Shown here piece after piece: positions 1 through 3,000 of a stretch of DNA of 4,375 nt; the stretch's first letter is position 1, and each line of letters begins with the position of its first letter. Origin of the DNA: a virus (Duplodnaviria; Heunggongvirae; Uroviricota; Caudoviricetes); the IMG/VR virus record IMGVR_UViG_2537561716_000016; one strand, 5' to 3'. Made by a program: the position numbers.

Positions 1-3000
1 TCTCAGTATGTGTCACTGGCCTATACGGAGCGACTAAAAGAAGCCGGATTACTGGCATCAACAGGGAGTACAGGCGACTCGTGACAACGCGATGGCGAGA
101 GCATCAATGGTCTTTACAAAGCGGAGGTAATACACCGTAAGAGCTGGAAAAACCGTGCAGAAGTGGAACTGGCCACACTAACGTGGGTGGACTGGTATAA
201 CAATCGACGATTGCTGGGAAGGCTGGGCCATACTCCTCCGGCAGAAGCAGAAAAAGCTTATTATGCTTCCATCGGAAACGATGATCTGGCAGCCTGAGTT
301 CACAGATAAAACACTCTCCAGGAAACCCGGGGCGGTTCATTAACGCCGGAATAATCCAGTCATTCACTGCACCGCGCCTTGATCACTCCCGCAAGCCGGA
401 TATGGCGCGAGAAAAACTTGTGCAACTTCTTGGCGATGTTCCCCGGATAGAACTGTTCGCCCGTCACACCTCGCATGGATTTGATGTCTGGGGTAACCAA
501 TGCGGAACACCATCCATTGAGATGGTTCCGGGTATTGTTAAATTTCTGGAGAAAACCAATGAGCGAAAAAACGACGTTGACAAAGGCATCACCAGTTGAA
601 TTAAGGCAGTGCCTGGAAATCGCAAATCAACTTGCCAGAAGTGGAATACGCTTTGTTCCGATCCCGATCACAGCAGATACAGAACTTCATCTGTTTGGTG
701 AAATTCTTTCCCGAAAGCTGGATGAACTGGAAAAGCTGGTAGAAGAAGCTGACACCTCACCAATCGCATAACACCCCCACCGACATTAAAATATCAGGAG
801 AAAAAAATGAACGCCGTACTCACAGAATTGAACAAATTAGGAAAAGCAACAGCCGACAGCATTTCTAAAGGTCTCAATATTGATTTGAATGACGTCATTG
901 ATACGCTGTGGAAGTTGAAAAACCAGGGGATCGTAAAGGTAAAAAACGGCATCTGGCAGGCAGTAGAGGGAGTTGGAAGCAAAACAGATATTGATTCAGT
1001 TCAACCAGTTCAACCAGTTCAGCCAGTTCAGCCAGTTCAGCCAGTTCAGCCAGTTCAGAACAACATTATAGGTGACCTGCTACGTAAATCACGGAAAGAA
1101 GCGCGCCGCGCCGGGCGGAAACAGAAACGATGGGAGGGTGCATGTAAGGCGTTGCAAGAACTGAATAAATACCGTGACTTGATCAACGAATTGTCAGAGT
1201 GAACGTAGCGGGAATCCACGTCCTTTAGGGCGTGGATGATATCAGGCTGTTGAAATACATGTAGAAAAGGAGCGCATACTATGGAAGTCAACTTAATGAC
1301 CGAAAAAGAGGTTTCTGATTTGTTACAAAAAAGGCGCACAGCTTTGTATAATTTGCGAAAAAAACACGGATTCCCGGAACCAGTACTTACTCATCCGGCG
1401 CGATATAGTCGTCAGGCCGTTGAACAATGGCTTAAAGCCGGAGGAATTAACCGAGCTGTTTAGCGTGCCAGAAAATTTTATCAGCATACAACTCATACGC
1501 ATCTTTCTGTTCCGACAACCAGTCGTGTTTATTATACACGGCCATAACTCCCCCAAGTTCATGCCCCAGCATTTTTTCAGTGACGTGGGGCATAATTCCT
1601 TCCCCAGATAAATTCGTTACCAGAGAACGCCTAAAATCATGCGTTCTCCATTCAGGAATATCAATTTTCTCCCTTAACTTTTTCATGTACAAATTAGCCG
1701 ACGAACGATCAATAGGTTTATCTATTTCCTGCCCGGGGAATAGCACATCAAAACCCGCATTAAGCAATCTCTCGATATAAGGTTTAACCTGAGTGAATAC
1801 CGGACGCCGGATAATATTCCCCATTTTTGAATGCTCTTTTGGGGTTGTCCAGACCAGATCTTCCATGTTGAACTCACTGGCTGTCGCGAGACGTAGCTCA
1901 GAAAGTCTGGCCCCCCATAGCAATAGCAATTGATGTAACACCTTGTTGGAAGTAACTACTTTTGAGTTCTCCAGCGCCAGCCAAATTTTTGCCAGTTCCG
2001 TATAGGTAAGTACACGACTCCCTACATCTGGTTTTTTCCCAATATTCTTAACACTAAGCTTGAGTAATTCGCATGATGGGATTAACTGGCGGCTGATACA
2101 CCAGTTAATAACTGAACGCAGTTGTAACAACAAAACACGAGCCTTTTTCTTGTTGAGGCTTTCTTGTTTGTCAAAGAAACGAGCCCATGCCGATACTGGG
2201 ATACTGGCAACTGGCGAGCCTTCAAACTGTGTGTACATAGTGTTGTACACGACGGATCTGTAAAGCGTCTGTGTATTGGGTTTCAGATCAGTAACATACT
2301 TATCCCACCACTGATCCAGGCATTCTTTTAATGTCAGTTCGCCGTCACTGGGCGCAAAATAATTTTTAGGGTTAACTCCCTTCATGTACAATGCGCGCAT
2401 CTCACCGACGATAACACGCGCGTCCTTCAGTGAAGTAGACGGATAGCGCCCGACAGTAAGACGTACTGGCTTACCATTCCAGCGATAACGGTACTGAAAC
2501 GTGATAGTTCCTGCTGGAGTAATCCGCACACTTAACCCGTCACCATCGGTGATTTCAGCAGGGCCAGAGTAGGGTTTTCCGTAGAGGCCTCGTAGTTTGG
2601 TGTCGCTCAGTGCCAATGCTTTATATCCTGTACACAAGTTTATAATGTATTCTGTACTCAATATGTACGCATTAGCAAGTGAACAAAACACTTTTCAACG
2701 CAAAAGAAGATAATCAACCATGAACAAAAACAAACTTACACCTTGATTTTAAAACCATAAAGACGGTATTATCAGTCATATGGTGAACAACCAAAATCAA
2801 TACGCAACAATGTCCTCTTAGTTAAATGGATATAACGAGCCCCTCCTAAGGGCTAATTGCAGGTTCGATTCCTGCAGGGGACACCATTTATCAGTTCGCC
2901 TCCATCCGTACCAGTCCGCAAAATCCCCTGAATATCAAGCCTTCCGTAGATTCACAGTTCGTCATGGTTCGCGTCAGATCGTTGACAGCCGCACGCCATG

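What the first reader, a model, noticed from the sequence alone, without database searches (positions are those of the whole stretch)
2679..2794. Three direct RTGAACAA repeats between the upstream integrase and the tRNA
Copies at 2679-2690, 2720-2731 and 2783-2794 share an 8-bp core within about 115 bp of non-coding DNA. Integrase promoter regions and att arms typically carry direct repeats bound by the integrase N-terminal domain or by Xis/AlpA-type factors. These are the best candidates for defining the unknown attachment or regulatory region of the upstream element.
Basis: seen in the sequence. Interest (0 to 1): 0.4.

Follow-up and report, generated by a model that had tools for sequence, protein, structure and literature searches.

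The report
Phased repeats in Stx-phage attachment arm

Summary
Observation confirmed. RTGAACAA occurs exactly three times in the window, at 2679, 2720 and 2783, all on the + strand.

The "upstream element" is not unknown. It is a Phi24B-type Stx2a prophage: Int is 97% and Xis 93% identical, and the arm differs at 2 bases. It crossed over in the first 24 nt of argW (core 2812-2835), so 2617-2811 is phage attachment-arm DNA.

In 23 relatives from more than 15 genera this about 195-bp arm aligns almost without gaps. The C of GAAC/GAAAC falls on a lattice of about 10.4 bp: -128, -118, -107, -97, -87, -77, then -34, -24, -14, -4 from tRNA +1. The window's copies sit at -128, -87 and -24.

The better integrase arm-site candidates are five TGTACnCA sites, three here and two in the other arm.

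The GAAC lattice is on one arm only and abuts the -35 of the mapped int promoter. On the int strand it reads GTTCA, like the proven GTTCG sites of the excisionase TorI. It switches to GGAC/AGAC in sbcB-integrating relatives whose Xis has Q/D/S instead of T20.

Best reading (about 0.5, inferred, no binding data): excisionase-binding sites. A conserved outward promoter that replaces argW's own sits between the two lattice blocks.

The finding is ordinary in kind, but these sites have not been mapped for Phi24B.

The parts
2679..2686 (+). Repeat copy 1, GTGAACAA. On the int strand it reads TTGTTCAC. The C of GAAC is at -128 from tRNA +1. It directly abuts the -35 (TTGCTA) of the int promoter.
   Evidence: GTGAAC is at least 90% conserved in 23 relatives. 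Lattice position -128 is occupied in 15 of 23.
2720..2727 (+). Repeat copy 2, ATGAACAA, at lattice position -87, 41 bp from copy 1.
   Evidence: Position occupied in 7 of 23 relatives. A 41-bp spacing is a family-wide peak.
2731..2735 (+). Degenerate copy, CAAAC, at lattice position -77. It is a full GAAC in Phi24B and Stx1 phages (A2732G).
   Evidence: Position -77 is occupied in 7 of 23 relatives.
2783..2790 (+). Repeat copy 3, GTGAACAA, at lattice position -24. It lies in the predicted pre-tRNA leader, 21 bp from the core.
   Evidence: Position occupied in 15 of 23 relatives. A 63-bp spacing from copy 2 is a family-wide peak.
2795..2810 (+). Two degenerate copies: AATCAA with its C at 2798 (-14), and CAACAA with its C at 2808 (-4).
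   Evidence: Read. Positions -14 and -4 carry GAAC/GAAAC in 5 and 4 relatives.
2628..2671 (+). Three TGTACnCA sites: CTGTACACA 2628-2636, CTGTACTCA 2652-2660 and ATGTACGCA 2663-2671. These are the proposed integrase arm-type sites and they overlap the int promoter and leader.
   Evidence: Two more copies in the same orientation lie about 60 bp beyond the core in the other arm of four divergent attPs. The GGTAC variant of the sbcB lineage is shared by both of its arms.
2643..2678 (-). Int promoter pInt. My assignment is -35 TTGCTA (2678-2673), an 18-bp spacer and -10 CAGAAT (2654-2649). The published 5'-RACE start maps to about 2643-2645.
   Evidence: PMC3064807: the start lies 46 bp downstream of the old start codon of the 1245-bp ORF, which is 1447-2691 here. 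The hexamers are TTGCCA / CAGAAT in most relatives. The hexamer assignment is my inference.
1447..2616 (-). Phi24B-type tyrosine integrase (389 aa, TTG start), with an arm-DNA-binding domain.
   Evidence: 97% identical to Phi24B Int. Pfam PF13356 and PF00589. RefSeq coordinates.
1281..1463 (+). Xis, the recombination directionality factor (60 aa, HTH_17/AlpA-like). It is the proposed binder of the GAAC lattice.
   Evidence: 93% identical to Phi24B Xis, which is required for excision (PMC3064807). Pfam PF12728.
2743..2772 (+). Outward promoter supplied by the phage for argW: -35 TTGATT (2743-2748), an 18-bp spacer and -10 TATTAT (2767-2772). The predicted start is about 2779.
   Evidence: The TTG of the -35 and TAnnAT of the -10 are at least 90% conserved at a fixed distance from the tRNA in 23 relatives. 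The native argW promoter is left at the other prophage junction.
2812..2835 (+). 24-bp crossover core, GTCCTCTTAGTTAAATGGATATAA. It comprises the 5' acceptor strand and D-arm of argW.
   Evidence: It is the shared sequence at both prophage junctions and in K-12. The 24-bp crossover is stated in PMC7581858.
2812..2886 (+). argW, tRNA-Arg(CCU). The gene is intact, but everything upstream of it is phage DNA.

Best explanation
The three RTGAACAA copies are binding sites for the phage recombination directionality factor Xis. On the int-coding strand they read TTGTTCAY, with core GTTCA.

They lie in the integrase-proximal arm of a Phi24B-type attachment site. They are the best-preserved members of a helically phased array with about 10.4 bp spacing, arranged in two blocks. 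One block runs from the -35 of the int promoter toward the core (copy 1 at -128, copy 2 at -87, a degenerate copy at -77). The other lies between the phage-supplied argW promoter and the core (copy 3 at -24, degenerate copies at -14 and -4).

Proposed mechanism: after induction, Xis made from the early-left operon binds cooperatively along one face of this arm. That shapes the arm so that Int, held at the TGTACnCA arm sites and the core, carries out excision. Because copy 1 abuts the -35 of pInt, Xis binding probably also represses int.

Shown: the location, conservation, phasing, strand bias and restriction to one arm; the identity of the module with Phi24B; and the published int start site and Xis requirement.

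Inferred: that Xis is the binder, and what its binding does.
For: 1. Identity of the system. Int is 97% and Xis 93% identical to Phi24B, and the arm is identical except at 2 bases. Phi24B Xis is required for excision and int has its own promoter here (PMC3064807).

2. Conserved geometry. The roughly 195-bp arm aligns almost without gaps across 23 elements. GAAC/GAAAC falls on discrete positions -128, -118, -107, -97, -87, -77 and -34, -24, -14, -4. Pairwise distances peak at 10, 20/21, 30/31, 41, 51/53 and 63 bp. Mean cosine at 10.3 bp is 0.49 against -0.02 +/- 0.17 for shuffles.

3. Enrichment and strand specificity.

4. One arm only. The distal arms of four attPs carry TGTAC sites but no such lattice.

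5. Experimentally proven analogue on the other side of the same tRNA. TorI, the excisionase of KplE1, binds GTTCG/GATCG/GTCCG pentamers in two blocks, one near the core and one abutting the -35 of PintS, and represses intS (PMC2951348). In this window those pentamers are 10 bp apart at 2957, 2967 and 2977, followed by TTGACA. Here GTTCAC is followed directly by TTGCTA.

6. Covariation. sbcB-integrating relatives with the same layout use either GAAC or GGAC/AGAC. The Xis residue aligned with T20 is T (rarely V, A or S) with GAAC, and Q, D or S with GGAC/AGAC. The Int tree implies at least two switches. No residue in Int 1-90 separates the two groups.

7. TorI aligns T25/Y28 with Xis T20/Y23, and TorI Y28 is needed for DNA binding (PMC3509656).
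Against: - There are no binding data for this protein. PMC7581858 states that the sequences bound within attP are unknown.
- In this window the three perfect copies are 41 and 63 bp apart. They are not adjacent as in classical Xis or TorI arrays, and the intervening lattice positions are degenerate or empty.
- The covariation rests on about two evolutionary switches and has exceptions. L101 has Xis but no GAAC. Serine occurs in both groups. The first site next to the -35 is GGAC in all sbcB-type arms.
- Several elements keep the lattice without an adjacent xis (L013, L019, L023).
- TorI and this Xis are only remotely related. BLASTP finds nothing and the best PDB hit has E = 0.68.
- Copy 1 overlaps the distal UP half-site proposed for pInt by Fogg et al.
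- Copy 3 would lie in the transcribed tRNA leader.
Confidence: 0.5

Rival explanations
1. The repeats are arm-type binding sites for the N-terminal domain of the integrase.
For: Int has an arm-DNA-binding domain (PF13356). The repeats are direct, lie in an att arm and are conserved.
Against: - A better candidate exists. TGTACnCA is nearly invariant across Int relatives from 50% to 100% identity, occurs three times in this arm and twice in the other arm, and its lineage-specific flavour (GGTAC against TGTAC) is shared by both arms of one element.
- The GAAC lattice is absent from the distal arm.
- The lattice motif changes to GGAC/AGAC without any tracking residue in Int 1-90.
- In KplE1 the IntS arm sites sit over the -10 and leader of intS, as the TGTAC sites do here, while the pentamer repeats there are the excisionase sites.
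Confidence: 0.15
2. The repeats are bound by a host protein that shapes the arm or regulates the two divergent promoters. One possibility is the unidentified host factor needed for Phi24B recombination in vitro. Another is an OmpR-family regulator that reads 10-bp direct repeats: on the int strand copy 2 reads TGTTCAT, which is the core of the TorR box CTGTTCATAT as I recall it from memory.
For: PMC7581858 reports that IHF is dispensable but a crude cell extract is required. There is no IHF consensus in this arm. The 10-bp phasing resembles the sites of winged-helix response regulators (general knowledge).
Against: - The motif changes between closely related elements that live in the same hosts: GAAC against GGAC/AGAC in Enterobacterales sbcB-type phages. 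That fits an element-encoded binder better than a conserved host protein.
- No host regulator was tested.
- The tor-box resemblance is recalled from memory and covers one copy only.
Confidence: 0.1
3. The repeats are promoter-associated sequence with no dedicated binding protein. That would mean UP-like A-rich DNA or sequence-directed bends serving pInt and the outward argW promoter, possibly replacing IHF-induced bends.
For: - Fogg et al. placed a 9/11 distal UP half-site upstream of pInt. My mapping puts it at AAAAGTGTTTT, the reverse complement of 2686-2696, which overlaps the tail of copy 1.
- The arm is 44% A on the + strand.
- Phi24B does not need IHF.
Against: - A-tracts of 4 or more bases are not in helical phase (mean cosine -0.23 at 10.3 bp).
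- A rough wedge model gives no more curvature than shuffles. Its parameters were recalled from memory.
- What is conserved is G-A-A-C, not A-richness, and the GGAC/AGAC variant has no A-tract.
- The same lattice occurs in sbcB-type arms where the target is a protein-coding gene.
- By eye, copy 2 matches the UP consensus poorly.
Confidence: 0.1
4. The three copies in this window are chance matches in A-rich DNA and have no function of their own.
For: The core is short (8 bp). The arm is A-rich. The motif was chosen after inspection. 4 of 200 whole-window shuffles also reach three matches.
Against: - Positions -128 and -24 carry GAAC in 15 of 23 relatives whose surrounding sequence has diverged.
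- The family-wide enrichment has z of about 11.
- Strand bias is strict.
- Distance peaks are sharp at multiples of about 10.4 bp, including the window's own 41 and 63 bp.
Confidence: 0.05

Closest known systems
TorI (excisionase) sites in attL of the KplE1/CPS-53 prophage of E. coli (Panis et al.; PMC2951348)
   Same: - The sites are direct pentamer repeats (GTTCG, GATCG, GTCCG) on the int-coding strand, against GTTCA/GTTCG here.
- They form two blocks, one near the tRNA core and one abutting the -35 of the integrase promoter.
- Spacing within a block is 10 bp.
- The integrase arm sites overlap the -10 and leader of int.
- The int gene reads away from the tRNA.
- The excisionase is a small winged-helix protein of the AlpA/HTH_17 kind.
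- The KplE1-type copy sits in this same window at 2894-2987, mirror-imaged across argW.
   Different: - KplE1 crosses over at the 3' end of argW and this element at the 5' end.
- The proteins are only remotely related (no BLASTP hit).
- Here the array is longer (up to about 10 positions in relatives) and sparser in this window.
- Here the array is interrupted by an outward promoter.
- TorI binding is proven, whereas binding here is inferred.
Lambda Xis sites X1, X1.5 and X2 in the P arm of attP
   Same: Closely phased direct repeats on one arm only, lying between the arm-type Int sites and the core. They are bound cooperatively by a winged-helix excisionase that bends DNA and sets directionality (established knowledge; summarised in PMC3064807 and PMC2951348).
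   Different: - Lambda has three adjacent sites on the arm distal to int, plus Fis and IHF sites.
- Lambda int is transcribed toward att from pL/pI.
- Here the sites are on the int-proximal arm and spread over about 125 bp.
- Here IHF is dispensable (PMC7581858).
Phi24B attP / Int / Xis module (Fogg 2011, PMC3064807; Mohaisen 2020, PMC7581858)
   Same: It is the same module. Int is 97% and Xis 93% identical. The arm is identical except A2732G and T2811C, and the 24-bp core is the same. The published minimal attP (427 bp works, 350 bp fails, with near-equal arms) fits a need for the outermost TGTAC site, which lies 176-184 bp from the core (my inference).
   Different: Those papers map the int start site and show that Xis is required. 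They do not map Int or Xis binding sites and they never mention the tRNA: 0 hits for tRNA or argW. The repeat lattice and the outward promoter are not described there.
Genomic islands at the 5' end (D-loop) of tRNA-Arg in Klebsiella (bioRxiv 10.1101/2020.11.02.365908)
   Same: A dedicated integrase clade targets the 5' acceptor strand, D-stem and D-loop of the CCU arginine tRNA gene and integrates upstream of it. Two islands can occupy the two ends of the same gene, as in this window.
   Different: In the passages retrieved, that work reports the sublocation only. It does not describe arm architecture, repeats or a replacement promoter.

Membership tests
Excisionase (RDF) binding-site array in an att arm | Several direct repeats in one orientation, lying between the integrase arm-type sites and the core. 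| tested here: met
   Three exact and three degenerate copies, all on +, between the TGTAC sites (2628-2671) and the core (2812).
Excisionase (RDF) binding-site array in an att arm | Spacing that puts the sites on one face of the helix or allows cooperative binding. | tested here: met
   The family lattice has a period of about 10.4 bp. The window spacings of 41 and 63 bp are 4 and 6 turns. However, the perfect copies in this window are not adjacent.
Excisionase (RDF) binding-site array in an att arm | Present on one arm only. | tested here: met
   The distal arms of Stx phage 86, the TW14359 prophage, Hafnia phage yong2 and Klebsiella phage Kp4873-4 have TGTAC sites but no lattice. The sbcB-type phages show the same.
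Excisionase (RDF) binding-site array in an att arm | A cognate excisionase is encoded by the element. | tested here: met
   xis at 1281-1463 is 93% identical to Phi24B Xis, which was shown to be needed for excision (PMC3064807).
Excisionase (RDF) binding-site array in an att arm | The motif changes together with the excisionase. | tested here: inconclusive
   GAAC goes with T at Xis position 20, and GGAC/AGAC with Q, D or S. This rests on about two switches and has exceptions: L101, serine in both groups, and the first site in sbcB-type arms.
Excisionase (RDF) binding-site array in an att arm | Direct, specific binding by the excisionase. | not testable with these tools
   Needs a gel shift or footprint. 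None has been published for Phi24B (PMC7581858).
Integrase arm-type sites (lambda P/P' kind) | Copies on both arms of attP. | tested here: not met
   RTGAACAA/GAAC forms no conserved set in the distal arm. TGTACnCA does, with 3 + 2 copies.
Integrase arm-type sites (lambda P/P' kind) | The integrase carries an arm-binding domain. | tested here: met
   PF13356, E = 3.6e-17. This shows that arm sites must exist, not that these repeats are them.
Integrase arm-type sites (lambda P/P' kind) | The motif is as conserved as the Int N-domain. | tested here: not met
   The lattice motif switches between GAAC and GGAC/AGAC, while no Int 1-90 column separates the groups. TGTAC is kept throughout.
UP element or intrinsically bent promoter-upstream DNA | A match to the UP consensus, or phased A-tracts that give curvature. 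| tested here: not met
   A-tracts are out of phase and the wedge model shows no more curvature than shuffles (rough, with parameters recalled from memory). Only the tail of copy 1 overlaps the published 9/11 half-site.
Phi24B-type recombination module | The same Int, Xis, 24-bp core and arm sequence. | tested here: met
   with the core defined.

The most novel reading that the evidence does not exclude
The lattice does two jobs. The prophage has removed argW from its own promoter and drives this rare-codon (AGG) tRNA from a promoter embedded between two blocks of excisionase sites. The native argW promoter has a GC-rich discriminator typical of stringent control. If Xis (and perhaps Int) occupies the lattice on induction, it would also switch tRNA-Arg(CCU) supply. 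The phage would then hold host AGG decoding under its own lysis-lysogeny control. The same design, an arm lattice plus replacement expression signals, recurs in relatives that replace the 5' end of sbcB.
Probability: 0.12. Interest if true: 0.7.

Novelty: new member of a known kind. Interest (0 to 1): 0.4.

Why it matters
Phi24B-type phages carry Stx2a into clade 8 O157:H7 and many other E. coli, and their integrase is unusually promiscuous. The most recent functional paper says the sequences bound within attP are still unknown.

This analysis gives a concrete, testable map:
- five TGTACnCA sites for Int;
- a phased GTTCA lattice for Xis;
- the mapped int promoter sitting between them;
- an outward promoter that must now express argW.

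It also shows that this architecture is shared by integrases from more than 15 genera that target the 5' ends of argW or sbcB. The natural GAAC and GGAC/AGAC variants could be used for specificity-swap experiments.

In kind it is ordinary, since excisionase sites in an att arm are well known, so the value is in annotation and experimental design rather than in a new principle.

Tried and rejected
1. Intrinsic curvature. A-tract phasing and a wedge-model end-to-end measure give no signal. The model parameters were recalled from memory, so this test is rough.

2. IHF sites. There is no WATCAANNNNTTR match in this arm, only in the distal arm.

3. A structured RNA. Rfam finds only the tRNA.

4. 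A coding explanation. The GTG-initiated 414-aa ORF that would cover copy 1 is the start discredited by 5'-RACE. The ATG of copy 2 opens an ORF of only 8 codons (read).

5. The minus-strand promoter-like hit at 2775-2746. Its hexamers fall in a non-conserved stretch, so it is probably spurious.

6. Presence or absence of xis against presence of the lattice. This was not decisive. L018 and L031 lack both, but L013, L019 and L023 keep the lattice without an adjacent xis, and L101 has xis with no GAAC.

7. Direct homology of Xis to TorI. BLASTP finds nothing. Only a multiple alignment and the published HHpred model link them.

8. No structure prediction and no large protein-database search were run. 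Fogg et al. had already modelled Xis, and the question turns on DNA binding.
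Full report
**Observation**

The window reads GTGAACAAAACA at 2679-2690, ATGAACAAAAAC at 2720-2731 and GTGAACAACCAA at 2783-2794. RTGAACAA has exactly three matches in the 4375 bases on both strands. All are on the + strand and all lie within 112 bp. Dinucleotide shuffles give a mean of 0.53, and 4 of 200 reach three. Within the local A-rich 135 bp, GAACAA is expected 0.29 times (P about 0.001, for a motif chosen after the fact). The stretch is non-coding. The integrase ORF that seems to start at the GTG at 2691 really starts at the TTG at 2616, by RefSeq annotation and by 5'-RACE and expression data for the near-identical Phi24B gene (PMC3064807).

**What the locus is**

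The window comes from E. coli O157:H7.
- The tRNA at 2812-2886 is argW, tRNA-Arg(CCU).
- Downstream lies intS of a KplE1/CPS-53-type element.
- Upstream, on the minus strand, is an integrase followed by a convergent 60-aa HTH gene and lambdoid early-left genes.

Comparison with K-12 shows that homology begins exactly at the first base of the tRNA. Comparison with the far junction of the same prophage in strain TW14359, next to yfdC, shows a shared 24-bp sequence, GTCCTCTTAGTTAAATGGATATAA. So a prophage of about 62 kb crossed over inside the 5' acceptor strand and D-arm of argW. Window 2617-2811 is phage attachment-arm DNA that has replaced everything upstream of the tRNA, including its native promoter. 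That promoter stays at the other junction.

The phage is the argW-type Stx2a converting phage: VT2phi_272, PA28, ArgO145 and Stx2 phage 86 match at 99-100%. Its Int is 97% identical to that of Phi24B and its Xis is 93% identical. The arm is identical to Phi24B except A2732G and T2811C.

The attachment region is therefore not unknown. It is the Phi24B module, for which three things are published:
- the int start site and its repressor-independent promoter;
- the requirement for Xis in excision (PMC3064807);
- a 24-bp crossover, a minimal attP between 350 and 427 bp, and independence from IHF (PMC7581858).

The latter paper states that the sequences that support integrase binding remain to be found. 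Neither paper mentions the tRNA.

**Comparative anatomy of the arm**

A scan of one genome per species found 33 loci encoding relatives of Int. In about 22 of them, from Erwinia, Enterobacter, Pantoea, Brenneria, Xenorhabdus, Providencia, Tatumella, Salmonella, Morganella, Proteus, Rouxiella and others, the gene faces away from a tRNA-Arg(CCU) gene across a spacer of about 195 bp. These spacers, plus those of Hafnia phage yong2 and a Klebsiella phage, align almost without gaps. The alignment shows four features.

1. A nearly invariant block: TATCCTGTACACA, 13 bases, then ATTCTGTACTCAATnTGTACGCAATGGCAAGTGAAC. It holds three TGTACnCA sites (window 2628-2636, 2652-2660, 2663-2671). On the minus strand it holds a TTGCCA -35 (TTGCTA here, 2678-2673) and a CAGAAT -10 (2654-2649). 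This agrees to within about 3 nt with the published start site, which lies 46 bp downstream of the old start codon, at about 2643-2645. Repeat copy 1 is the last element of this block and abuts the -35.

2. A variable A-rich stretch.

3. A conserved outward promoter, CTTGAT, 18 bases, TAnnAT (window 2743-2748 and 2767-2772). It sits at a fixed distance from the tRNA.

4. A leader of about 39 bp up to the tRNA.

**The repeats are part of a phased lattice**

I marked GAAC or GAAAC in all 23 arms and recorded the position of the C relative to tRNA +1. The positions are sharply discrete:
- -128 (15 sequences), -118, -107, -97, -87 (7) and -77 (7);
- then a gap that exactly spans the outward core promoter;
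- then -34 (7), -24 (15), -14 (5) and -4 (4).

The window's copies are at -128, -87 and -24. The window also has degenerate copies at -77 (CAAAC, a full GAAC in Phi24B), -14 and -4.

Further measurements:
- GAAC is enriched about three-fold over dinucleotide shuffles (72 against 24.8 +/- 4.3).
- The motif is strictly strand-specific (GAACAA 24 times, reverse complement 0).
- Pairwise distances within sequences peak at 10, 20/21, 30/31, 41, 51/53 and 63 bp. Mean cosine at a 10.3-bp period is 0.49 against -0.02 +/- 0.17 in shuffles.
- The site consensus is about (T/C)GAACA(A).

The sequences are related by descent, so these numbers are not independent probabilities. However, the flanking sequence in the variable stretch has diverged freely while the lattice positions have not.

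**Which protein binds?**

Int carries an arm-DNA-binding domain (PF13356), so arm-type sites must exist. TGTACnCA fits that role best, for four reasons.
- It is kept across relatives from 50% to 100% Int identity.
- Besides the three copies here, two more copies in the same orientation lie about 60 bp beyond the core in the other arm of Stx phage 86, the TW14359 prophage, Hafnia phage yong2 and Klebsiella phage Kp4873-4.
- In the sbcB-integrating lineage, the variant TTGGTACRC is used on both arms of the same phage.
- If the published attP constructs have near-equal arms, as stated, then attP350 (about 163 bp per arm) loses the outermost TGTAC site at 176-184 bp from the core, and attP427 (about 201 bp per arm) keeps it. 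That matches the reported failure and success (my inference).

The GAAC lattice behaves differently. It is on the int-proximal arm only. On the int-coding strand it reads GTTCA or GTTCG.

The KplE1 element on the other side of this same tRNA offers a proven precedent. Its excisionase TorI binds GTTCG/GATCG/GTCCG pentamers in two blocks, one near the core and one abutting the -35 of PintS, and it represses intS. The IntS arm sites lie over the -10 (PMC2951348). In this window those pentamers are at 2894, 2914, 2957, 2967 and 2977, the last three 10 bp apart and followed directly by TTGACA. The Phi24B-type arm is the mirror image: GTTCAC followed directly by TTGCTA.

**Covariation with Xis**

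Int relatives at 50-75% identity integrate into the 5' end of sbcB with the same layout: int, three GTAC sites, a 10-bp lattice, then the target 5' end. Some of these use GAAC and others GGAC/AGAC.
- The Xis residue aligned with window T20 (KRR-T-ALY) is T, rarely V, A or S, in GAAC/AAAC arms. It is Q, D or S in GGAC/AGAC arms.
- On the Int tree the GGAC/AGAC group is paraphyletic and a GAAC subclade is nested within it. This implies at least two switches.
- No column of Int residues 1-90 separates the two groups.
- TorI aligns its T25 and Y28 with Xis T20 and Y23, and TorI Y28 is needed for DNA binding (PMC3509656).

This is suggestive, not proof. The number of independent events is small, and there are exceptions: L101 has Xis but no GAAC, serine occurs in both groups, and the first site next to the -35 is GGAC in all sbcB-type arms. 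TorI and this Xis are too distant for BLASTP.

**Rivals**

- Intrinsic bending. A-tracts are out of phase, a rough wedge model shows no excess curvature, and the conserved letters are G-A-A-C rather than runs of A.
- UP element. This can account only for the tail of copy 1.
- Host factor. One remains possible, because Phi24B recombination needs something from cell extract other than IHF. But a motif that switches between related elements living in the same hosts points to an element-encoded binder.
- Chance. This is hard to reconcile with the conservation of position and phase.

**Likely mechanism**

Shown:
- the arm belongs to the Phi24B attP;
- int is transcribed from within it;
- Xis is required for excision;
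- the repeats are conserved, phased, strand-specific and restricted to one arm.

Inferred:
- On induction, Xis made from the early-left transcript binds the lattice cooperatively along one face of the DNA and bends or stiffens the arm. Int bridging the TGTAC sites and the core then runs excision rather than integration.
- Occupancy of copy 1 next to the -35 lowers int transcription.

I put this at about 0.5.

A further inference is that the conserved outward promoter now drives argW, giving a leader of about 32 nt. It replaces a native promoter with a GC-rich discriminator.

**Novelty and verdict**

Excisionase sites in att arms, integrase promoters buried in att arms, and integration at the D-loop or 5' end of this tRNA (bioRxiv 10.1101/2020.11.02.365908) are all known kinds of thing. 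What I did not find described is the site map for the Phi24B family, the family-wide lattice, and the embedded replacement promoter. The finding is real and moderately useful. I rate it a new member of a known kind, with interest 0.4.

Noticed in passing
window 2743-2772 (+), with 2812-2835: The prophage crossed over in the first 24 nt of argW, so the tRNA has lost its native promoter. That promoter stays at the far junction next to yfdC. A phage-borne promoter, TTGATT, 18 bases, TATTAT, is conserved in TTG and TAnnAT at a fixed distance from the tRNA in 23 elements from many genera. It probably now expresses this rare-codon tRNA.
   Followed up: partly
window 2628-2636, 2652-2660, 2663-2671; L006 1836-1856; L003 9721-9741; L004 1826-1846: Five TGTACnCA sites in one orientation, three overlapping the int promoter and leader and two in the other arm of attP. 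They are nearly invariant across the family and are the best candidates for the unmapped Phi24B Int arm-type sites.
   Followed up: yes
window 2887-3047: The KplE1/CPS-53-type attL lies on the 3' side of the same tRNA. It has the published TorI pentamers (GTTCG 2894, GTCCG 2914, GTTCG 2957, GTTCG 2967, GATCG 2977) followed by the PintS -35, TTGACA, at 2982-2987. Two unrelated integrative elements thus flank one 75-nt gene in mirror-image arrangement, and their excisionase motifs are similar enough (GTTCG against GTTCA) to raise the question of cross-talk.
   Followed up: partly
L024-L030, L033, L035, L039 and L043-L114 (for example L028 1280-1500, L053 560-1000): Int relatives at 50-75% identity integrate into the 5' end of sbcB (exonuclease I) and supply a replacement N-terminus, for example MTDTDKQPTFLFHDYET. 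They have the same arm layout, and their 10-bp lattice reads either GAAC or GGAC/AGAC depending on the lineage.
   Followed up: partly
L006 1787-1802; L003 9675-9687: A perfect IHF consensus (WATCAANNNNTTR) sits in the int-distal arm of attP. In phage 86 it lies within a short palindrome. Published work nevertheless finds IHF dispensable for Phi24B integration.
   Followed up: no
window 2621-2628 and 2828-2835: TTATATCC, next to the int ribosome-binding site and the first TGTAC site, is the exact reverse complement of GGATATAA, the right end of the core. It may only reflect the AGGA Shine-Dalgarno sequence, or it could be a core-like Int site.
   Followed up: no
window about 997-1058: A tandem 9-bp repeat, TTCA(A/G)CCAG, about 6-7 copies, encodes (PVQ)n inside the DUF1627 gene at 807-1202. 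Copy number differs between strains: RefSeq annotates a 378-nt gene in TW14359 against 396 nt here.
   Followed up: no
window 1-337: The 3' end of an IS3-family (IS1203/IS629-like) transposase abuts the phage early-left genes. Most related O157 genomes match the window only from 338 onward, so this IS insertion is specific to a few strains.
   Followed up: no
window 1447-1463: xis and int are convergent and overlap by 17 bp at their 3' ends. The same arrangement is kept in relatives from many genera.
   Followed up: no
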